Below, one piece after another: positions 10,724 to 19,820 of a DNA stretch of 64,000 nt. A program made the position numbers and the translations under genes. Source of the stretch: Candidatus Euphemobacter frigidus (GTDB lineage: Bacteria > Auribacterota > Erginobacteria > Erginobacterales > Erginobacteraceae); NCBI GenBank assembly GCA_030765805.1, contig JAVCDH010000111.1, positions 5,424 to 69,423 on the forward strand, given 5' to 3'. The stretch's first letter is position 1. Every line of letters begins with the position of its first letter. The notes below the pieces were generated by a model, which had not been told where the DNA came from, ran no database searches, and saw nothing but the letters and a program-made list of their open reading frames with translations.

Positions 10724-10886
10724 CCTATCCCCATCCCTTATTAGAATTAGATATTTATAGCATTGCTGTTTTTGTCTAATTCTGGAAAACATGCGCTTTA
10801 TTTGAACAGGCTTTCTCTTCCTTAAGTCTAATTAAATGTTAAATATCTTCAATCCATATCCCGAACAAAAGAATGCCTTGACAATG

Positions 10887-10895
10887 TGGTATATT
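10887..10895 (+). promoter_or_regulatory. possible extended -10 promoter element (TGgTATATT) in the 250-bp AT-rich leader of the GH5/GH18 gene
   Basis: Seen in sequence at 10887-10895. An imperfect inverted repeat tagaattaga/tctaattctg (10741-10750 and 10774-10783) lies upstream and may be an operator. Confidence 0.25.
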
Positions 10896-10973
10896 TAATT
10901 GAGGGAAGACGGGTGGGGGCGAGCATGGTCGGGCGGCGGAGGTTACCGGTAATCAAAATTCAGGGGATCAAAA

Positions 10974-13424
10974 ATGACAAAAAAACCCCGAATTAATCAT
11001 CCTGAGAACAGCAAATCGTCGAACCCTCCCGGAAGACTATCTTGGTTCGCGGCAATTTTAGTTCTTGTACTTCTTGTCCTGTTGATCTTCGTGGAAGGGG
11101 TGGAATCCAACCCGGTCTGCAGCGGCGGTAGCGCCCACTGGTGGGGCGGCAATTTAGAGCCCCAGGCTTGTTATCCTCTCGACATTCCGGCTGACAAGCT
11201 GGTGCTGAGCCCCCATGTCTACGGCCCCGACGTTTACCCCCAGGAATATTTCAATGATCCTGATTTCCCCGAAAACATGGGAGCGATCTGGGAGGCCCAC
11301 TTCGGCTTCCTGGTGAACGAGAGTTACGCGGTGGTCCCGGGCGAGTTCGGCGGCAAGTACGGCCACGGCGGCAATCCCCGCGATCCGATACTCCAGGACT
11401 CCCTGGTCGATTATTTCCTGGAGAAAGATATCCCCGGATTCTTCTACTGGTGCTGGAACCCGAACAGCGGGGACACGGGGGGGATACTCAAGGACGACTG
11501 GACAACGGTCTGGGATGACAAGGTCGTTCTCCTCCACCGGATGATGGCTGATGGTGATCCGACCCCCACTCCGGTCTGCGGACCGGGTTTTCCGGACCGG
11601 GTCTTCGCCCCTTACGTGGATGTCTGCATCTACCCGCGGTTCTTCATCACCGAGATGAACACGGCGATGGGGACGAAGTACTACACCCTGGCCTTCGTCG
11701 TCAGCGCCAATGACGGAATCGGACGGCCGGCCTGGGGCGGCTATCCGGAATATCTGGTGGAGGGTGACTGGTACCGGGACGAGATCGACGAGATCCAGGC
11801 GCGGGGAGGAGACGTGATCGTCTCCTTCGGCGGCGAGGCGAGCTCGGAACTCGCCCTGGCCCATGACAATGTCGAGGATCTCCGGGCCGCCTACCAGTCG
11901 GTGATCGACAGATATCACCTGACCCGGGTCGACTTCGACATCGAGGGCGCGGCAGTCGCCCATACGGAATCAATCGACCGGCGCAACAAGGCCATCAAAC
12001 TCCTCCAGGACCAGAACCCCGATCTGACGGTGGCTTACTGTCTCCCGGTCATCCCCTCGGGGCTGACCCAGGACGGGATAAATCTTCTCCAGAACGCCAT
12101 CGACAACGGGGTGAGGGTGGATGCGGTCAACATCATGGCCATGTTCTTCGGGGCCGGTGCCGCGCCGAACCCGGATGGACAAATGGCGGAGTACGCGATC
12201 GAGGCGGCGGAGAGCCTCTTCGATCAGCTAAAAAGCCTCTACCCGGAAAAGTCTGACAGCCGGCTGTGGCGAATGGTCGGGATAACCCCGATGATCGGCC
12301 GGGGCGGCATCACAACCGAGGTCTTCTATCTGGAGGACGCGGAACAGCTCCTGGCTTTCGCCCGCGAGAAGAACATCAACCTGATCTCCATGTGGTCCGC
12401 CAACCGGGACAACGGTTCCTGCGGAGCGGCATCCTACTCCTCACCGCTCTGCAGCAGCCTCGAGCAGGACGACTTCGCGTTCTCGGAGATCTTTGAGCAG
12501 TTCACGGGCGCGGTGGTGCCGACCCCCACCCCGGCTGCTACCGGGACACCGGAGCCCACGGCCACTGCCCCGCCGGCACCGAGCCCGAGCGTTCCGGCGG
12601 TCCCCACCCCCACTCCAGGTGACCCGGGACCGACAGTTCCTCCGACGCCGGCTCCCCCGATTCCGCCGGCTGCCCGGCAGCTCCCGGTTATCGAATCCGG
12701 AGACTACGACGGAGACGGGAGTTCCGATGTTGCCCTCTTCCGGCCCTCCACCGGCTTCTGGGCGGTGAGAGGGATTACGGCCTGTTACTTTGGAAAGGAG
12801 GGAGACATCCCGACCCCAGGCGACTGGAACGGGGATGGGACCACCGAGATCGCCCTCTTCCGGCCTTCCACGGGCCTCTGGTCCGTCAGAGACGGAGACC
12901 GGCTCTACTTCGGAAAGGAGGATGACATCCCGGTCCCCGCAGACTACGACGGAACCGGAGCCTCGGAGATCGCCGTCTTCCGGCCCGCTTCCGGTCTCTG
13001 GGCGGTGAGGGGCGTCACCCGGGACTATTTCGGCCAACCGGATGACAGGCCGCTCCCGGGCGACTACAATGGAGATGGGACCGCCGAGATCGCCCTCTTC
13101 CGGCCCTCCACCGGCCTCTGGGCCGTCAGAGACGGGGGCCGGCTCTACTTCGGGGGAGAGGGGGATATCCCGGTCCCGGCCGACTACGATGGGAACTGGG
13201 AACTGGACGCGGCCATCTTCCGGCCCGCTTCCGGCCTCTGGGCCGTCAGAGGCGGGGACCGGCTCTACTTCGGGGGAGAGGATGATATCCCGGTCCCGGC
13301 CGACTATAATGGTGACGGGACCGCCGAGTTCGGCCTCTTCCGGGAAAGTTCCGGTCTATGGGCGGTGAGTGGAGTATCCCGTCTCTACTTCGGCATCGAT
13401 GGGGATATCCCCGTTACCCGGTAG
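10974..13424 (+). CDS. membrane-anchored chimeric glycoside hydrolase: truncated GH5 C-terminal half + GH18 chitinase-like domain + Pro/Thr linker + six FG-GAP-like repeats
   Basis: N-terminal TM anchor. GH5 C-terminal motifs are present (SPHVYGP, VVPGEFGG nucleophile region, FFYWCWNPNSGDTGG). The GH5 acid/base NEP region is absent. The GH18 catalytic motif DxDxE appears as RVDFDIEG. The linker PTPTPAATGTPEPTATAPPAPSPS is followed by six repeats of about 40 aa, consensus NGDGxxEIALFRPSTGLWAVR...YFGxxxDIPVPxDY, ending GDIPVTR. Confidence 0.7.
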   Translation: MTKKPRINHPENSKSSNPPGRLSWFAAILVLVLLVLLIFVEGVESNPVCSGGSAHWWGGNLEPQACYPLDIPADKLVLSPHVYGPDVYPQEYFNDPDFPENMGAIWEAHFGFLVNESYAVVPGEFGGKYGHGGNPRDPILQDSLVDYFLEKDIPGFFYWCWNPNSGDTGGILKDDWTTVWDDKVVLLHRMMADGDPTPTPVCGPGFPDRVFAPYVDVCIYPRFFITEMNTAMGTKYYTLAFVVSANDGIGRPAWGGYPEYLVEGDWYRDEIDEIQARGGDVIVSFGGEASSELALAHDNVEDLRAAYQSVIDRYHLTRVDFDIEGAAVAHTESIDRRNKAIKLLQDQNPDLTVAYCLPVIPSGLTQDGINLLQNAIDNGVRVDAVNIMAMFFGAGAAPNPDGQMAEYAIEAAESLFDQLKSLYPEKSDSRLWRMVGITPMIGRGGITTEVFYLEDAEQLLAFAREKNINLISMWSANRDNGSCGAASYSSPLCSSLEQDDFAFSEIFEQFTGAVVPTPTPAATGTPEPTATAPPAPSPSVPAVPTPTPGDPGPTVPPTPAPPIPPAARQLPVIESGDYDGDGSSDVALFRPSTGFWAVRGITACYFGKEGDIPTPGDWNGDGTTEIALFRPSTGLWSVRDGDRLYFGKEDDIPVPADYDGTGASEIAVFRPASGLWAVRGVTRDYFGQPDDRPLPGDYNGDGTAEIALFRPSTGLWAVRDGGRLYFGGEGDIPVPADYDGNWELDAAIFRPASGLWAVRGGDRLYFGGEDDIPVPADYNGDGTAEFGLFRESSGLWAVSGVSRLYFGIDGDIPVTR

Positions 13425-13476: not shown

Positions 13477-15363
13477 TTACCAGAAGTAGGCAACGCTGAG
13501 GGTAAACTGGCGGCCCGGGCAGGGAACGCCGGGGATCTCCTCGAAGCTGACCTTGAAGGGGTTGTCGATGGTGGCGGTCACCTTCAGTCCCGGAAGGATT
13601 CGGGGAAGATAGGAGAGTCCCAGATAGGTAAGACAGGCGTTCCTCCTTCCTCCGCGCAGATAATTATCTTCCTGCATGCGGTACTCGTTTTCGGAACGCA
13701 GCTCAAAGTCTTCAAGAAAACGCCAGACCAACGTTCCGGTAAAGCGATGGCGGGGAAAATTAATGGCGTAGAAACTGGCATCTACATCCGGGGTTTTATA
13801 ATCATGGGATTTTTTTAAGCAGGTGTAACCAGCCTGGAGATAGAGATCCCGCCACTTTTTATCGAGAATGATCTCGGCGCCCCAGGTCTTGATATCAACG
13901 GCGGAGGCGGTGCGGGCATTGGGAGAACCTTCCTCATAAGTCCAGTCAACCAGGTCATTCTCGATCCGGTAGAATACGGCCCCATGGAGACTCCATGATT
14001 CTCGGAGCAGTTCGATTCCCGCTTCCAGGTTATGGCTCCGTTGCAGTCCCAGGTCCGGGTTGCCCCCGAAGAGCCCTTCGGGGGGTGAGCCGAGAGCCGT
14101 ATAACTGGGTAACTGGTCGGCCGAGGCGTAGCTGCAATAGTAGCGGTTCTCTCCTCGACCGGGAAGGAGCTGGAGCAGGGCAACGCCCGCCAGGGGAGAG
14201 AGAGAAGAAGCAGAGCGGTTGGAATCGTCAAAGGCGGCTCCGCAGCTTAATGAGAAAGACAGTTCAGGATTAAGCTCCACGATCTTCCGCGGCAGGACGG
14301 CCAGCTTACCGATCGTCCGTGAATAGTAAGGGCTGAAGGTCAGGGCGGTTGAAGTGAGGGTGTCGGCGGCAAGCCGGCCCGAGTAGTTCAGATCGAAGAA
14401 ATTAAACGCGTGCCATCCGTTAAAGCCGGCCGTCCAGACCTGGGTTCGATGGAAGGCCTGGTAGATCTCCGGATCGGAACGCTGCAGAATATAATGATCC
14501 CGGTTCCGGCGATAGCATCCGCTCAATTCCAGGTAATTCTGCCCGGAATATTCCACCCGGTGGTTGAGAATGACCAGGGTAGTGTGAAGGCTCTCGGTCT
14601 CATCGGTATCATAATAATCTTTCGGGGTATACATATCGGGCCAGCCGAAAAACTTGGACTGGTAGCCGCAGAAGAGATCGCTCTGGTAATCTCCTCCCTG
14701 AAACTGGAGCCGGCCGCCGATCCGGCGGAAGTTGTAGTCTCCCTGCGGGCGGGTGCCGTCAGACTCCGATCGGGCCAGATCGAGGTCGAAGGCGATCTTC
14801 TCCGTCAGGCCGGCGAGCAGTTCGGGGGGATCGGTGAGATAGGCCGCGTAGGCGTGCTGGAGGTTGAGACGGTGCTCCCCCAGTCCGGCTCGGGCCACAC
14901 CCCCGGTCTCGATCAGCATCCATTGATAATCAACCGTGCCGACCAGGGAGTTGAACCCGAACAGTTTACTATCAATCCCGGTCAGGATCCGGGGCGTGGT
15001 GAGCATGCCGGGGGGGATCGGAATCTCCGCGGCGTAATGCCCGGTCTGAGGGTCAAGCAGGGTTATCGCCCCCACCGCGAAACCGGTCGTGGAGAAGATC
15101 CCGCCCCGGATAGAAAGATCAGCCTGGGCTTCCGCCATGTTCCGGCTCTGAAGATCGACCTGGGGATTAAACCGTAGGAGAGAAACAGGGGCGGCAAAGG
15201 TTCCGGCCGGAGCGGCGGCCGGGGGGCCTCCCGCGCAGACAACAACCGCGGGGAGTTCTAGAGCTGCCTCCTGCTCATCCGCCGCCCCAGCCTTCTTCAT
15301 GGTTGCCAGAGACAGTAAACCGATTAACCCCGCGCCGGTTAACATGCTCTTTCGGAATTTCAC
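13477..15363 (-). CDS. TonB-dependent outer-membrane receptor (small, BtuB/CirA-size)
   Basis: Signal peptide, plug-like region (DLSIRGG), a long beta-rich body and a C-terminal aromatic end ...SVAYFW, as expected for OMP/TonB-dependent barrels. Confidence 0.6.
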   Translation of the reverse strand: MKFRKSMLTGAGLIGLLSLATMKKAGAADEQEAALELPAVVVCAGGPPAAAPAGTFAAPVSLLRFNPQVDLQSRNMAEAQADLSIRGGIFSTTGFAVGAITLLDPQTGHYAAEIPIPPGMLTTPRILTGIDSKLFGFNSLVGTVDYQWMLIETGGVARAGLGEHRLNLQHAYAAYLTDPPELLAGLTEKIAFDLDLARSESDGTRPQGDYNFRRIGGRLQFQGGDYQSDLFCGYQSKFFGWPDMYTPKDYYDTDETESLHTTLVILNHRVEYSGQNYLELSGCYRRNRDHYILQRSDPEIYQAFHRTQVWTAGFNGWHAFNFFDLNYSGRLAADTLTSTALTFSPYYSRTIGKLAVLPRKIVELNPELSFSLSCGAAFDDSNRSASSLSPLAGVALLQLLPGRGENRYYCSYASADQLPSYTALGSPPEGLFGGNPDLGLQRSHNLEAGIELLRESWSLHGAVFYRIENDLVDWTYEEGSPNARTASAVDIKTWGAEIILDKKWRDLYLQAGYTCLKKSHDYKTPDVDASFYAINFPRHRFTGTLVWRFLEDFELRSENEYRMQEDNYLRGGRRNACLTYLGLSYLPRILPGLKVTATIDNPFKVSFEEIPGVPCPGRQFTLSVAYFW

Positions 15364-16025: not shown

Positions 16026-19000
16026 ATGCACATCGGGCAAGCGTTTATCTGCCTGGCAAATATCGAACAATCTCACACAATCCAGTCTTCCTTGCCCCGG
16101 GGGAGGAAAGCCCTTTTGCGGGGCAGCCGCCTCATGGCGCTCGTTCTGGCCGGATGCCTGCTATCCTTATTCTCGGCAGCGGGGACAGTATCGGCCCAGG
16201 ATTGGGGACTCCTTACCGACGGCACTGTTCACGTCATGCTCTCCTCTCACCAGGATCTGGGATGGGAGGACTCTATTGCAGTGTGCAACGAAATTAGAAA
16301 CGACAAAATTATCAAGCCCGTTCTGGAGTGGATGGGGCAGACCGATACCAACTATCGTTACACCTTTGAATACGTTTACGCCCTGATGCATTATCTAGAT
16401 ACCTATCCGGAGGCTCTCCCGACGGTCCGGGAACACACGGCATCCGGCCGCTTCCAGTGGGGCGCCGCTTACAACGATTTTTATGAATCGCTCTTTTCGA
16501 GCGAGGGGCTGGTCCGCCAGTTCTACCTGGGCAAGAAGTGGATGAAGACCACGCTGGGGGAAGGCTGCGAGTCCCGCACCTATATCAACATGGACCCACC
16601 CCAACGGGCGCTCCAGATACCGCAGATTCTCAACAAAGCCGGCATCGACTTCCTGGTGACCAGCCGAACGAATGCGAGTTTGTTCAAATGGTCGAGTCCC
16701 AACGCCCATACAGATTCCCCGGATGATTACAGCGTGCTGGTATTTTCCAACGGGCTCTATGGCATTCCCTGGCTCTGGTATAGCAGCAAGGGGATGCTGA
16801 CCCCCTATTCCAACGCATGGAAAAATGAAACAGGGCCTGTCCCCAACTATCCTTCAGCTCTTTTTCACGCCGAGACAAGTGTTTGGGATTACTGGAGCCA
16901 GTATACTGACCCGTCGGCTCACCAGGGTTCGCCGGAAGGCATGACCTGGGAGGAGTATTTCCAGGGCAACAATTTTCCGGCTCAGTTCCCGCTTTTATAC
17001 ACTAACGACATGGCCAAACCATCACCATACCTCGGTGTCCTAACAGCTGAATACAACTCCGATCTTATTCAGGATTGGAACCAATGGGAGGAGTACACCG
17101 CCCGCGACTGGCCGGAGATACGATTATTCACCTGCGACCAGGCCCTGGGGGCATTCTGGTCCGCCGCCACCCAGTCGGGAGTAATTTTCGAAGAGTGGAG
17201 GGGGGAACGCCCGAACCTGTGGTTATACAGCCACGGTCCCGGGCATCACTGGGCGGGCAGCGCCATCCGTGAAGCCGGCCGGCTCCTTCCGGCAGCGGAG
17301 ACCTTTGCCACCATCGAGTGCCTGCTGGCCGGGGATTTCAGTTCTTACCCAAGCAATGATCTTTTGAATGGGTGGAAGGGCGCCATCTTCCCAGGTCATG
17401 GTTGGGGTGGTGAAGATGGCGAAGATACCGATAACCGCTTCCTCTGGGCGGCCCAGACCGGAGAGCGGGTGGGACGGGAGGTCCTCGCGAACGCCCTGGA
17501 ATCGATCGCGGCACGGGTGGATACCGAAGGCTTCGGGGGGGAGCCGATCATCATCTTCAACATGCTCCCCTGGGAACGGAGCGACCCGGTAATCTGCCGG
17601 ATTGAACCGGAGGGAGAGAACTGGTCCATCGTTGACAGCGACTGGGCCCCGGTCACCCGCCAGGTGCTGGATGACGCCGATGGGAGTAAGGAGGTCGTCT
17701 TTATCGCCCGGGACGTGCCTTCCCTGGGATATCGGACCTATTACCTGGTGGAAGACGGCGCGGGCGCGCCACCCGCTCGGAGCGCGGTATCGGGTGAGAA
17801 CCAATATTACCGGTGGGAACTGAGCCCGGGCGGTTTCACCAGCCTCACCGACCGGGAACTGAATCTGGAGATCCTGGCCGCGACCAAATCATACGGCGGT
17901 AAGACATTCCGCGGCGCCGAATTCTTCTCCATGTCCGCCTGCTGTGCCTGCGCCACCTATCCAACCTGCTGCTGCGGGGCTTTCGAACAACAGACAATCA
18001 TGCAACCCGACCCGAACTCTTACTTTCAACAGATGAGGGATTACGGGGCCGGGTGGACAGAGGTCGAGGCGGGTCCGGTCCGGGACTCGTTTGAATACGA
18101 AGTAGTGGTAGATGACTGGACCGCCCGCCAGAAACTTATCTTCTACCGGGATCTGAAGCGGATCGACTGCGAGTTCTCGATGCAGTCGTGGCCCGGCACC
18201 CACTGGCGGGAGTGGAGAATGGCACTGCCGGTGAACCTGGATTCGGGTTTCGTGAGCTACGAGGTCCCCATGGGTGTGGTCCAGGTCGGCCGGGATGAGC
18301 TGCCGTTTCCGGCGGGGGGGCATTACAACGAGCAGACCTGCAGCTACGTCACTCCCCGGGAGGTCCAGAACTTCATCAGCGTCTGCGGTCTGAACCCGGC
18401 TTTCGGAGAGCAGACCTTCGGGGTAACGATGAGTTCCAGTGTAGCCGTCTGCAATTATATCTTCCCCCCCAGCACCTATGTCGGCCCCGACTCACAGGGG
18501 AGAATAAGCGATCCGATCCTCCAGCCGATTCTCCTGGCTACCCGTCACAGCAATAAAGATGATGGGAATTGGTGGTCACAGGAGGGAGATCACAATTATT
18601 ACTTCTCTATATTCTCCCACGAGGGCGACTGGAGAAACGGATGGAGGAGCGCCGCCCAGGCCAACAGCCCCCTAGTACCGGTTGTGGGGGTCGCGCCTGC
18701 CGCCGGTGCCAATCTCCCGGAGGAGAAGAGTTTCTGCTCGGTCGCCCCCGACAACATCGTCCTCACCGCTTTTAAGAAACGTGAAGATGATATCTTCACC
18801 CCAGAAGGCACGGTTGACGAAGATGTTATCGTGCGCTTTTACGACATTGAAGGCCGACACACATCCGACGCCGAGATCAGATTCTTTTTCACGGTGGAAG
18901 GGGCCGAAAAGACGAACATCCTCGAAGAACCGCTGGCGGGGGGTGGATCCGGCATCTCTGTTTCCGGGCAGTCGGTGAGACTGGATGTCGGCCACCACTC

Positions 19001-19820
19001 CATCGAGACGCTGCGAATAGTTCCCGGGCCCATCCCTCAACCCACTCCGGACTATATAGTTCTCAAATCCGGCGATTACAACGGTGACGGTAAATCGGAT
19101 ATCGCCGTCTTTAGGCAGTCCACCGGACTCTGGGCGGTGAGGGGATTGGGGCGGATCTATTTCGGCACCACCGGCGACATTCCGGTGAGCGGAGATTACG
19201 ATGGCGACGGCATCACCGACGTCTCGATCTTCCGGCCCTCAACGGGCCTTTGGGCGGTCAAAGGGATCACCCGGCTATATTTTGGGGGCTCAAACGATCT
19301 TCCAATTCCCGGCGATTATAACGGGAACGGATTATGTGATATCGCCGTCTTCGGAAATACAAGCGGTTGGTGGAGCGTGAAGGGTCTCACACAGGTTTAT
19401 TTCGGAATCTTGAACGATCGGCCGGTTCCGGGAGACTTCAATGGAGATGAAAAGGCGGAGATCGCCATATTCCGGCCCTCCTCCGGTCTCTGGGCGCTTC
19501 GGGACATTACCCGCTGTTATTTCGGTGGAGGTGATGACATACCAGTCCCCGGTGTGTATGAATGGTACGGTGCTGCCCGGGCGTCGGGCACCTTTAAAAG
19601 CCGGATCGCCGTCTTCCGGCCAGACAGCGGGTTATGGGCCATTCGGGGTTTCACCCGTTATTATTTTGGGGCGGTCGATGACAGGCCGGTCATAGGTGAC
19701 TTTACGGGCAATTCCCTGGATGATATCGCTATATTCCGGCAAGGTACCGGTCTCTGGGCGGCAAAAGGGATTACCCGGGCTTACTTTGGCACTTTTGGGG
19801 ATATTCCGGTGACACGCTAA
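16026..19820 (+). CDS. secreted GH38-like (alpha-mannosidase family) glycoside hydrolase with a C-terminal tail of FG-GAP-like repeats
   Basis: Signal peptide RLMALVLAGCLLSLFSAAGTVSA after a 36-aa N-terminal extension. The GH38 N-domain-like motif is MLSSHQDLGWEDS (compare HSHxDxGW). An unusual Cys cluster ACCACATYPTCCCG is present. The C-terminal about 280 aa are six or seven 40-aa repeats (DxNGDGxxDIAVFRxSTGLWAV...YFGxxxDIPVPGDY) ending GDIPVTR. Confidence 0.55.
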   Translation: MHIGQAFICLANIEQSHTIQSSLPRGRKALLRGSRLMALVLAGCLLSLFSAAGTVSAQDWGLLTDGTVHVMLSSHQDLGWEDSIAVCNEIRNDKIIKPVLEWMGQTDTNYRYTFEYVYALMHYLDTYPEALPTVREHTASGRFQWGAAYNDFYESLFSSEGLVRQFYLGKKWMKTTLGEGCESRTYINMDPPQRALQIPQILNKAGIDFLVTSRTNASLFKWSSPNAHTDSPDDYSVLVFSNGLYGIPWLWYSSKGMLTPYSNAWKNETGPVPNYPSALFHAETSVWDYWSQYTDPSAHQGSPEGMTWEEYFQGNNFPAQFPLLYTNDMAKPSPYLGVLTAEYNSDLIQDWNQWEEYTARDWPEIRLFTCDQALGAFWSAATQSGVIFEEWRGERPNLWLYSHGPGHHWAGSAIREAGRLLPAAETFATIECLLAGDFSSYPSNDLLNGWKGAIFPGHGWGGEDGEDTDNRFLWAAQTGERVGREVLANALESIAARVDTEGFGGEPIIIFNMLPWERSDPVICRIEPEGENWSIVDSDWAPVTRQVLDDADGSKEVVFIARDVPSLGYRTYYLVEDGAGAPPARSAVSGENQYYRWELSPGGFTSLTDRELNLEILAATKSYGGKTFRGAEFFSMSACCACATYPTCCCGAFEQQTIMQPDPNSYFQQMRDYGAGWTEVEAGPVRDSFEYEVVVDDWTARQKLIFYRDLKRIDCEFSMQSWPGTHWREWRMALPVNLDSGFVSYEVPMGVVQVGRDELPFPAGGHYNEQTCSYVTPREVQNFISVCGLNPAFGEQTFGVTMSSSVAVCNYIFPPSTYVGPDSQGRISDPILQPILLATRHSNKDDGNWWSQEGDHNYYFSIFSHEGDWRNGWRSAAQANSPLVPVVGVAPAAGANLPEEKSFCSVAPDNIVLTAFKKREDDIFTPEGTVDEDVIVRFYDIEGRHTSDAEIRFFFTVEGAEKTNILEEPLAGGGSGISVSGQSVRLDVGHHSIETLRIVPGPIPQPTPDYIVLKSGDYNGDGKSDIAVFRQSTGLWAVRGLGRIYFGTTGDIPVSGDYDGDGITDVSIFRPSTGLWAVKGITRLYFGGSNDLPIPGDYNGNGLCDIAVFGNTSGWWSVKGLTQVYFGILNDRPVPGDFNGDEKAEIAIFRPSSGLWALRDITRCYFGGGDDIPVPGVYEWYGAARASGTFKSRIAVFRPDSGLWAIRGFTRYYFGAVDDRPVIGDFTGNSLDDIAIFRQGTGLWAAKGITRAYFGTFGDIPVTR

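What the first reader, a model, noticed from the sequence alone, without database searches (positions are those of the whole stretch)
10974..11560. Glycoside hydrolase with only the C-terminal half of a GH5 domain fused to an intact GH18 domain
After an N-terminal TM anchor, the protein begins in the middle of a GH5 fold. The His/Tyr (SPHVY), nucleophile (GEFGG) and C-terminal WCWNPNSGDTGG motifs are present. The strand-4 NEP acid/base region is absent, and the 250-bp AT-rich upstream region is non-coding. Either this is a domain relic fused to GH18, or an unusual split or alternative catalytic arrangement.
Basis: partly seen in the sequence, partly recalled or inferred. Interest (0 to 1): 0.5.

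Follow-up and report, generated by a model that had tools for sequence, protein, structure and literature searches.

The report
Chitinase gene carrying a leftover half-cellulase
This is a shortened copy of a large multi-enzyme gene: the cut fell in the middle of its cellulase (GH5) domain, leaving an inactive but undecayed half-domain in front of an intact chitinase (GH18), so it is an ordinary gene-truncation relic and not a new kind of enzyme.

Summary
ORF 10974..13424 (816 aa, Ca. Euphemobacter frigidus, Auribacterota, Ace Lake) has five parts: a basic tail plus one hydrophobic segment, the C-terminal half only of a GH5_1 barrel (β5 to α8; the β4 NEP acid/base is absent), a complete GH18 with DFDIE, a PT linker, and six FG-GAP repeats.

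Comparison explains it. Relatives about 75% identical (L089, 1554 aa; L092, over 2309 aa) encode signal peptide–GH18–CBM5/12–complete GH5–(CBM3/GH18)–GH18–FG-GAP. DNA homology to them starts abruptly at window base 11082, the LIFVEG β5 codons. The 36 codons before it have no homolog anywhere and look like intergenic DNA (GC3 0.39 against 0.77). So the gene is a 5'-truncated derivative that acquired a new start and a new export or anchor segment.

The junction is identical in four independent assemblies. The relic shows no decay: dN/dS is 0.09–0.13, 31 of 32 conserved columns are kept, and there is no rate acceleration. That means either a recent truncation or continuing constraint.

Most likely only the GH18 is catalytic. 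A split or complemented GH5 is disfavoured, because β5 lies inside the hydrophobic segment. It could not be excluded, because the rest of the genome was not searchable.

The parts
10724..10973 (+). AT-rich non-coding leader (40% GC) between the 2-hydroxyacid dehydrogenase gene and the ORF. It holds an SD-like AGGGGA at 10962-10967, 6 nt before the ATG.
   Evidence: There is no ORF, no GH5 remnant in any frame and no Rfam family. The consensus scan found no sigma-70 promoter in this stretch. An extended -10-like TGgTATATT at 10887-10895 is seen by eye only.
10974..11081 (+). Codons 1-36, a new 5' segment unrelated to the GH5 lineage. It encodes the basic tail (aa 1-21, net +4) and most of the hydrophobic segment.
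   Evidence: No DNA or protein homology to the full-length relatives upstream of 11082. GC3 is 0.39, against 0.77-0.83 for the rest of the gene and 0.64±0.09 for the first 36 codons of 20 other window genes. There is no homolog among 1.84 billion representative proteins; the only hit, P0361, is a low-complexity protein. Not similar to the GH5 β4-α4 region beyond shuffles.
11037..11093 (+). Hydrophobic segment LSWFAAILVLVLLVLLIFV (aa 22-40), a predicted signal anchor or long signal-peptide core. Its last four residues (LIFV) are the GH5 β5 strand.
   Evidence: Kyte-Doolittle 19-residue mean is 3.15; the next best in the protein is 1.2. AF2 models a helix at aa 21-32 with low confidence. The breakpoint falls inside this segment.
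11082..11552 (+). GH5_1 relic, β5 to α8 of the (βα)8 barrel (aa 37-193). It keeps His/Tyr (SPHVY, 11208-11222), the nucleophile Glu (GEFGG, 11340-11354) and the β8 Trp motif (WCWNPNSGDTGG, 11448-11483). It lacks β1-β4 and the NEP acid/base Glu.
   Evidence: It is 73-77% identical in protein and 73-74% in DNA to the same part of the complete GH5 in L089/L091/L092. dN/dS is 0.09-0.13. 31 of 32 columns that are ≥90% conserved are kept.
11553..11585 (+). Short Pro/Thr linker (GDPTPTPVCGP)
   Evidence: Sequence; AF2 pLDDT is below 50 at aa 194-202.
11586..12509 (+). Complete GH18 catalytic domain (aa 205-512) with the catalytic motif VDFDIEG at 11928-11948. This is the probable sole active site.
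   Evidence: End-to-end alignment to the chitinases 9buf (E 2e-71) and 2dsk/3a4w (E 8e-50) with DFDIE conserved. AF2 pLDDT is above 90. dN/dS is 0.15 against relatives.
12510..12692 (+). Long Pro/Thr/Ala-rich linker
   Evidence: 77% P+T+A+S.
12693..13421 (+). Six 40-residue FG-GAP-type repeats (DYDGDG...FRP..GLWAVR...YFG)
   Evidence: Pfam PF01839/PF13517 and the repeat listing. Homologous tails occur in L089/L092 and in the GH38 gene at 16026..19820.

Best explanation
The ORF is a 5'-truncated derivative of a large secreted multi-catalytic glycoside hydrolase gene of the type signal peptide–GH18–CBM5/12–GH5_1–GH18–FG-GAP.

Shown: the breakpoint lies between β4 and β5 of the GH5 barrel, at window base ~11082. 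Everything 5' of it in the ancestor is missing: the signal peptide, the first GH18, the CBM and GH5 β1-β4 with the NEP acid/base Glu.

Inferred: the truncated gene now starts at an ATG in AT-rich, intergenic-like DNA. The 36 new codons supply a positively charged tail and a hydrophobic stretch. Together with the former β5 strand (LIFV), these form a Sec signal anchor or long signal peptide, so the rest of the protein is still exported.

Inferred from family knowledge: the GH5 remnant cannot hydrolyse anything. It lacks the acid/base residue and half the barrel, and its first strand is buried in the anchor or cleaved off. It therefore serves at most as a spacer between the membrane and the GH18. 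Catalysis resides in the intact GH18, which uses the substrate-assisted retaining mechanism of GH18 chitinases through the Asp-x-Glu of DFDIE. The FG-GAP repeats are kept as in the full-length relatives.

Inferred: because the remnant shows no decay at all, the truncation is probably recent.
For: Ancestral architecture:
- L089 encodes a 1554-aa protein with GH18 (aa 37-238), CBM5/12 (437-479), a complete GH5 (543-845, Pfam profile 8-272 of 272), the same GH18 and FG-GAP repeats.
- L092 encodes over 2309 aa with CBM5/12, a complete GH5, three CBM3, an extra GH18, the same GH18 and FG-GAP.
- The window protein is 73-77% identical to them in both the relic and the GH18.

Breakpoint:
- blastn and tblastx homology starts at window 11082-11085 in all four loci and continues to the stop codon.
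- The base-level alignment shows TTGATCTTCGTGGAAGGG against TTAATCTTCGTCGAGGGC, with unrelated sequence before it.

Reality of the junction:
- DNA is identical in four independently assembled samples (Logan x2, ENA, JGI). 13 contigs carry the protein.

New 5' end:
- GC3 is 0.39, there is no homolog, and an SD-like AGGGGA sits 6 nt upstream.
- There is a single strong hydrophobic segment and a net +4 tail.

Intact GH18.

No decay of the relic:
- 242 bits against a leave-one-out mean of 220 for intact members.
- 31 of 32 conserved columns kept.
- dN/dS 0.09-0.13. The relic/GH18 dN ratio is about 1.2 in both window-vs-intact and intact-vs-intact pairs.
- Relative-rate test: 6 against 2 changes, p=0.29.

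Rarity: 130 of 134 evaluable relatives have NEP in frame.
Against: - Lack of decay is equally what continued purifying selection on a still-useful half-domain would give. With only one clonal population (no polymorphism) and no second species carrying the truncated form, 'recent' and 'constrained' cannot be separated.
- The flanks of the full-length relatives are not syntenic with the window. So it is not shown whether the truncation happened in place or during a transfer or duplication of a partial copy.
- Export through the new N-terminus is predicted from hydrophobicity and charge only.
- GH18 activity and substrate are inferred from homology.
- No promoter was found by the consensus scan.
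Confidence: 0.8

Rival explanations
1. The half-barrel is retained under selection for a non-catalytic role. It might act as a carbohydrate-binding or spacer module that keeps the +/- subsite residues of β6-β8 (His80, Tyr82, Glu124, Trp161). This would be comparable to inactive GH5 modules kept in other multidomain proteins.
For: - dN/dS of 0.09-0.13 over the whole divergence and no rate acceleration.
- All conserved motif residues are kept.
- Catalytically dead GH5 modules retained in multidomain proteins are documented: GH5_30, and the Xanthomonas GH5_1-derived subgroup with expansin/CBM63 (PMC3526467).
Against: - The dN/dS values mostly reflect the time before truncation and cannot isolate the period after it.
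- The documented inactive GH5 modules are whole barrels on long branches, not half barrels on short branches.
- None of the six window-specific substitutions (I→V, P→G, G→S, D→N, A→S, S→C) suggests adaptation of the newly exposed barrel interior.
- The truncated form is known from a single clonal population.
- Three to four βα units with one strand in the membrane are unlikely to fold stably. This point is inference; the confident AF2 model simply reflects the family alignment.
Confidence: 0.1
2. It is a split or self-complementing GH5. The C-half would assemble either with an N-half (β1-β4 with NEP) encoded elsewhere in the genome or with a second copy of itself, rebuilding an active barrel next to the GH18.
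For: - Halves of a clan-GH-A-like barrel restore glucanase activity when co-expressed separately (GH148 EngU, PMC5725463).
- Isolated GH1 half-barrels gain weak activity on self-association (PMC4591997).
- The relic keeps the nucleophile Glu and all β6-β8 active-site residues.
Against: - β5 (LIFVEG) is part of the only hydrophobic anchor or signal segment, so it would be in the membrane or cleaved off and not in a barrel.
- No N-half is present in the 64-kb window.
- No Euphemobacter or Auribacterota protein appeared among the 120 best matches to an N-half profile.
- A homodimer of C-halves would still lack the acid/base Glu.
- The intact relatives carry the two halves in cis, so the simplest history is loss, not fission.
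Confidence: 0.05
3. It is a dead or dying gene: a non-functional pseudogene fragment that happens to keep an open frame.
For: - Truncation removed the native signal peptide and two of the ancestor's four functional modules.
- No promoter was detected by the consensus scan.
- The form is known from one population only.
Against: - A 2451-bp frame is open with no stops or frameshifts.
- The in-frame new N-terminus has exactly the features needed for export: a basic tail followed by 19 hydrophobic residues. There is also an SD-like site at optimal spacing.
- The GH18 catalytic motif and fold are intact.
- The gene's GC3 (0.77) matches the host genes and not the relatives (0.61-0.64).
Confidence: 0.05

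Closest known systems
Full-length multi-catalytic relatives found here (L089 / P0348, 1554 aa; L092, over 2309 aa; uncultured, JGI/ENA metagenomes)
   Same: They have the same GH5_1 C-half, the same PT linker position, the same GH18 subtype and the same FG-GAP tail, in the same order. Protein identity is 73-77%.
   Different: They have a signal peptide, an additional N-terminal GH18, CBM5/12 and the complete GH5 with NEP. L092 has three CBM3 and a third GH18 as well. The window gene lacks all of this and has 36 unrelated codons instead. Their genomic flanks and GC3 also differ.
GH5 subfamily 1 endo-β-1,4-glucanases (Xanthomonas EngXCA 4tuf; Pyrococcus horikoshii EGPh 2zum/2zun; Acidothermus E1 1ece)
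   Same: β5-α8 align at E 2e-60 to 6e-31, with the His/Tyr, nucleophile Glu and Trp motifs conserved. 2ZUN is the GH5_1 reference structure.
   Different: Only about half of the barrel is present. The acid/base Glu and β1-β4 are absent.
GH18 chitinases of the 9buf ('Exochitinase 1') / Pyrococcus furiosus ChiA catalytic-domain (2dsk) type
   Same: Full-length alignment with the DFDIE catalytic motif conserved.
   Different: It is embedded between a GH5 relic and an FG-GAP repeat domain. Its activity is untested.
Non-catalytic GH5 modules in multidomain proteins (GH5_30; the Xanthomonas GH5_1-derived subgroup with expansin and CBM63; Aspeborg et al. 2012, PMC3526467)
   Same: A GH5 module that cannot be catalytic, retained next to other modules.
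   Different: Those are complete barrels that lost catalytic residues and sit on long branches. This one is half a barrel that keeps its remaining catalytic residues and sits on a normal-length branch.
Split or half (βα)8 barrels that complement: GH148 EngU (PMC5725463), Sfβgly half-barrels (PMC4591997)
   Same: The break falls near the β4/β5 midpoint of a clan-GH-A-type barrel.
   Different: In those cases both halves are present, or self-association was shown experimentally. Here no partner is known and β5 is in the hydrophobic anchor.
Cellulase-chitinase multidomain enzymes, e.g. TcChi (GH12+GH18) of Thermococcus chitonophagus (PMC13629093), and other GH5+GH18 proteins found here (P0025, P0029, P0044, P0046, P0069, L086)
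   Same: A β-glucanase module and a GH18 on one polypeptide.
   Different: In those the glucanase module is complete. In L086 it is broken only by a 1-nt frameshift.

Membership tests
GH5 (clan GH-A) active glycoside hydrolase | Complete (βα)8 barrel | tested here: not met
   Only Pfam profile positions 162-272 of 272 and subfamily-HMM positions 150-306 of 311 are matched. No remnant of the rest was found in the ORF, the upstream DNA or the window.
GH5 (clan GH-A) active glycoside hydrolase | Acid/base Glu in the Asn-Glu-Pro motif at the end of β4 | tested here: not met
   It is absent. MAFFT's placement of SSNPPGRLSW on KNEPHGRATW is no better than shuffled sequence, and homology starts only at codon 37.
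GH5 (clan GH-A) active glycoside hydrolase | Nucleophile Glu at the end of β7 | tested here: met
   GEFGG aa 123-127 aligns with GEFGG of 4tuf and 2zum.
GH5 (clan GH-A) active glycoside hydrolase | Conserved His/Tyr on β6 and Trp on β8 | tested here: met
   SPHVY aa 79-83 and W(C)WNPNS aa 159-165 are present. 31 of 32 columns that are ≥90% conserved in the C-half are kept.
GH5 subfamily GH5_1 (by descent) | Closest sequence relatives are GH5_1 members | tested here: met
   The best PDB matches are 4tuf, 2zum/2zun and 1ece. 2ZUN is the GH5_1 representative in the classification paper.
GH18 chitinase | Complete catalytic (βα)8 domain | tested here: met
   Query residues 4-314 align to residues 5-307 of 315 in 9buf, and residues 7-296 of 311 in 2dsk are also covered. 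AF2 pLDDT is above 90 across aa 210-510.
GH18 chitinase | Catalytic D-x-D-x-E (the core of DxxDxDxE), with the proton-donor Glu | tested here: met
   VDFDIEG aa 319-325 is identical to 9buf (VDFDIEG) and matches 2dsk (LDFDIEA). The first Asp of the long motif is not conserved in this subtype, including in the solved chitinases.
GH18 chitinase | Chitinolytic activity | not testable with these tools
   This needs an enzyme assay.
Split or trans-complemented (βα)8 barrel enzyme | A partner half encoded elsewhere in the same genome | tested here: inconclusive
   None is present in the 64-kb window. None was named Euphemobacter among the top 120 N-half hits.
Sec-exported / membrane-anchored protein | N-terminal basic region followed by a hydrophobic core | tested here: met
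   aa 1-21 have 5 K/R against 1 D/E. aa 22-40 have a Kyte-Doolittle mean of 3.15. Whether the segment is cleaved or acts as an anchor was not determined.

The most novel reading that the evidence does not exclude
The half GH5 barrel is not a passive leftover. It would be kept by selection and be functional in one of three ways: as a natural half-barrel that assembles with itself, as one that assembles with a separately encoded N-half into an active glucanase, or as a new type of glycan-binding module derived from β6-β8 of a GH5. A signal anchor born from intergenic DNA would have rescued its export. That would be a natural example of the half-barrel modularity so far shown only with engineered fragments.
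Probability: 0.07. Interest if true: 0.7.

Novelty: new member of a known kind. Interest (0 to 1): 0.22.

Why it matters
It matters mainly for annotation. NCBI names this protein 'cellulase family glycosylhydrolase', but the cellulase part cannot be active. The protein should be read as a GH18 chitinase-type enzyme carrying a GH5 vestige. This affects metabolic inference for an organism reported to have only six glycoside hydrolases (PMC9324843).

It is also a clean, well-documented snapshot of modular enzyme decay. The breakpoint can be mapped to the base, an intact ancestor-like form is known, and the new export segment appears to have been recruited from non-coding DNA and spliced onto a former β-strand. 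If the relic proved to be retained by selection, it would bear on how (βα)8 barrels tolerate halving, but nothing here requires that.

Tried and rejected
1. NEP remnant. MAFFT aligned the N-terminal SSNPPGRLSW with KNEPHGRATW, and a weak tblastn hit (E=2.9) lay in another frame at 10924-11028. Both are no better than shuffles, and the DNA comparison shows homology starts only at 11082. The phmmer extension of the 4tuf alignment back to residue 27 is likewise just hydrophobic similarity.

2. Recurrent breakpoint. P0136, a 171-aa stand-alone C-half ORF starting MLSVNPNILVFVEG, turned out to be a full-length gene interrupted by a 10-N scaffold gap. P0133 and P0139 look like frameshifted or chimeric fragments.

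3. L086 as a trans partner. It has an N-half ORF followed 5 bp later by C-half–GH18–CBM2. It comes from a different sample, has a different GH18 subtype (DGVDLNFE), and is a single gene broken by a 1-nt frameshift.

4. Genome-collection scan for an N-half in the same organism. It was capped at the 80 best full-length hits, and Euphemobacter was not among the 80 loci returned. Uninformative.

5. N-half profile search of the protein database. It found no Euphemobacter hit, but the tool also failed to return the L089-type proteins that are in the collection. This is weak negative evidence.

6. Donor of the first 36 codons. There is no match inside the window and none among 1.84 billion representatives.

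7. Polymorphism-based selection test. All assemblies are identical.

8. Synteny with the relatives. None was found.

9. Regulatory RNA in the leader. None was found.

10. Supplementary GH list of the Ace Lake paper. It is not held.

11. AF2. It models the relic confidently, but this reflects the family alignment and is not evidence that half a barrel is stable.
Full report
**What is there**

ORF 10974..13424 (+) encodes 816 aa. It is identical to a protein that NCBI names 'cellulase family glycosylhydrolase' from a Candidatus Euphemobacter frigidus MAG. That organism is a member of Ca. Auribacterota from the anoxic zone of Ace Lake, Antarctica, and is reported to have only six glycoside hydrolases (PMC9324843).

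The protein has these parts:

| Residues | Feature |
|---|---|
| 1-21 | Basic tail: 5 K/R, 1 D/E |
| 22-40 | The only TM-like segment, LSWFAAILVLVLLVLLIFV (Kyte-Doolittle 3.15) |
| 37-193 | C-terminal half of a GH5 barrel |
| 194-204 | Short PT linker |
| 205-512 | Complete GH18 domain |
| 513-573 | PT-rich linker |
| 574-816 | Six 40-residue FG-GAP repeats |

**Checking the observation**

Three independent comparisons agree that only the second half of GH5 is present.
- Pfam PF00150 matches profile positions 162-272 of 272.
- 4tuf, a 346-aa GH5_1 endoglucanase, aligns only at its residues 183-342 (E 2e-60). 2zum/2zun and 1ece behave the same way.
- A subfamily HMM built from 56 intact homologs (311 positions) matches only positions 150-306.

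2ZUN is the reference structure of subfamily GH5_1 (PMC3526467), so the fragment descends from a GH5_1 endoglucanase. SPHVY, GEFGG (the nucleophile) and WCWNPNSGDTGG are present. The NEP acid/base motif is not.

I looked hard for a remnant of β1-β4.
- tblastn and a six-frame HMM search of the whole window found none.
- The upstream 250 bp and the N-terminal 34 residues score no better than shuffles.
- An apparent alignment of SSNPPGRLSW to KNEPHGRATW is therefore chance.

The GH18 aligns end to end with the solved chitinases 9buf (E 2e-71) and 2dsk, and the DFDIE catalytic motif is conserved.

**Is the junction real?**

The identical protein occurs on 13 contigs. Four loci from independent assemblies (two Logan runs, one ENA, one JGI) are base-for-base identical to the window across the upstream gene, the leader and the ORF. 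So this is not an assembly chimera. It also means there is no polymorphism to exploit.

**Where it came from**

A metagenome scan with the part of the protein spanning the relic/GH18 junction found relatives that match across both parts.
- L089 (also L090 and L091) encodes a 1554-aa protein: signal peptide, GH18 (aa 37-238), Cys/Asp-rich repeats, CBM5/12 (437-479), PT linker, a complete GH5 (543-845, Pfam 8-272 of 272, with IDIKNEPHG), PT linker, the same GH18 subtype, PT linker, and FG-GAP repeats.
- L092 encodes over 2309 aa with the same order plus three CBM3 modules and a third GH18.

The window protein is 73-77% identical to these in the GH5 C-half and 76-78% in the GH18.

DNA homology to all four loci begins abruptly at window 11082-11085 and runs to the stop codon. 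At base level, window ...CTTGTCCTG|TTGATCTTCGTGGAAGGG aligns with L089 ...GATATA|TTAATCTTCGTCGAGGGC. Homology therefore starts exactly at the codons for L-I-F-V-E-G, which form β5.

The window gene is thus a 5'-truncated derivative of this family. About 738 codons are missing relative to L089. The flanking genes are not shared, so I cannot say whether the truncation occurred in place or when a partial copy moved.

**The new 5' end**

Codons 1-36 are unrelated to the relatives. Their features are:
- GC3 is 0.39, against 0.77-0.83 in the rest of the gene. For the first 36 codons of 20 other window genes GC3 is 0.64±0.09 (minimum 0.42). The adjacent intergenic DNA is 40% GC.
- They have no match elsewhere in the window.
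- They have no credible homolog among 1.84 billion representative proteins.
- An SD-like AGGGGA lies 6 nt before the ATG.
- No known RNA family and no consensus sigma-70 promoter was found in the leader.

These codons encode exactly what an exported protein that lost its signal peptide would need: a basic tail and a hydrophobic run that continues into the old β5 strand. I infer that they were recruited from non-coding DNA, or from an unidentifiable gene start, and that they restore export as a signal anchor or long signal peptide. This is inference from composition and hydrophobicity only.

**Is the relic decaying?**

No.
- It scores 242 bits against leave-one-out family profiles. Intact members average 220±16, and 50 of 53 score lower. 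One caveat is that the homologs were collected with this fragment as the query, which favours it.
- It keeps 31 of 32 columns that are ≥90% conserved. The one exception, W→L, is shared with the intact homolog P0123.

| Comparison | Relic dN/dS | GH18 dN/dS |
|---|---|---|
| Window vs intact relatives | 0.09-0.13 | 0.15 |
| Intact vs intact | 0.06-0.09 | 0.07-0.15 |

- The relic/GH18 dN ratio is about 1.2 in window-vs-intact pairs and in the informative intact-vs-intact pairs.
- A relative-rate test with outgroups gives 6 window-specific against 2 clade-specific changes in the relic (p=0.29) and 6 against 7 in the GH18 (Fisher p=0.37). All six window-specific changes are conservative.

With silent sites near saturation between the window and its relatives (dS about 1-2), this means one of two things. 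Either the truncation is recent, roughly within the last tenth of the window lineage's divergence by a rough calculation from the dN values, or the relic is still under constraint.

Three observations fit recency: the intergenic-like composition of codons 1-36, the absence of any second population or species with the truncated form, and the absence of substitutions that would adapt an exposed barrel interior. None of them proves it.

**How it most likely works**

By the established mechanism of clan GH-A enzymes, hydrolysis needs the β4 acid/base Glu and the β7 nucleophile in a closed barrel. Here β1-β4 are gone, and β5 lies inside the only hydrophobic export or anchor segment. The GH5 remnant therefore cannot be a glucanase on its own.

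The GH18 has everything required for the substrate-assisted mechanism of chitinases and is the probable sole catalytic module. The FG-GAP repeats are retained as in the relatives, and the same kind of tail is found on the GH38 enzyme 2.6 kb downstream.

AF2 models β5-α8 of the relic as ordered (pLDDT about 80-91) and the GH18 at above 90. The relic's confidence comes from the family alignment and says nothing about the stability of half a barrel.

**Rivals**

*Retained non-catalytic module.* This is possible, and inactive GH5 modules are known. But those are whole barrels on long branches.

*Split or self-complementing barrel.* There are experimental precedents in GH148 EngU and GH1 half-barrels. 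However, β5 is unavailable and a C-half homodimer would lack the acid/base. No N-half was found in the window or among named hits.

That last negative is weak.
- The protein search missed the L089-type proteins although they are in the collection.
- The window's own contig was not among the loci the metagenome scan returned.

The rest of this genome was effectively not searchable here.

*Dead gene.* This is unlikely given the 2.4-kb open frame, the export-competent N-terminus, the intact GH18 and host-like codon composition.

**How unusual is it?**

Of 134 related loci in which the region upstream of β5 could be read, 130 have NEP in frame and two run off the contig end. The remaining two are L167, which has an N gap, and L105, a single-sample contig in which a DUF1365-like 5' end runs into GH5 just before β5 and which may be an assembly chimera.

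Other apparent half-GH5 ORFs in the databases were artefacts: a scaffold gap in P0136 and a 1-nt frameshift in L086. A verified, in-frame, export-equipped half-GH5 is therefore rare. But the process that made it, truncation of a modular CAZyme gene, is ordinary.

**Verdict**

It is a new member of a known kind: a truncated modular glycoside hydrolase. Interest is low to moderate, and the main practical consequence is a corrected annotation, GH18 enzyme and not cellulase.

Noticed in passing
L089:1464-6128 and L092:74-7003 (metagenome contigs Ga0075114_10001823 and Ga0222666_1000007): These are very large multi-catalytic enzymes. One is SP-GH18-CBM5/12-GH5-GH18-FG-GAP (1554 aa). The other is a version of over 2309 aa with three GH18 domains, one GH5, three CBM3 and CBM5/12, all joined by PT linkers. 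The 1554-aa protein's cluster has 13 members in JGI/ENA data, none with a name.
   Followed up: partly
window 16026-19820 (+): A 1264-aa GH38-family protein 2.6 kb downstream carries the same kind of C-terminal FG-GAP repeat tail. It is 66-76% identical in DNA to the tails of L089/L092. This suggests a shared surface-attachment or substrate-binding module on several glycosidases of this organism. A TonB-dependent receptor (13477-15363, -) and a Macro-domain gene lie between the two.
   Followed up: partly
L105:580-2469 (JRYL01001422.1): A single-sample contig in which the 5' part of a DUF1365-like gene runs in frame into a GH5 just before β5, at an 'AVL' microhomology, followed by CBM-like modules. 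It is either an assembly chimera or a second independent mid-GH5 fusion near the same point.
   Followed up: no
L086:2501-5564 (JGI 3300056625, 159-kb contig): An independent GH5-PT-GH18-CBM2 gene is split into two called ORFs by a 1-nt frameshift between β5 and β6. Its GH18 has DGVDLNFE, with Asn in place of the second motif Asp.
   Followed up: partly
window 10974-13424 compared with the rest of the window: GC3 of the glycosidase gene downstream of the breakpoint (0.77-0.83 in its domains; 0.77 for the whole ORF) is at or above the top of the range of other window genes (0.61-0.77). It is well above that of its closest relatives (0.61-0.64).
   Followed up: no
tool behaviour: The word-indexed protein search did not return the L089-type proteins (about 75% identical over ~780 aa) even though they are in the collection. 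It also did not return the query's own protein when queried with its first 200 aa. The window's own contig was absent from the metagenome scan. Negative results from these tools should be read with that in mind.
   Followed up: yes
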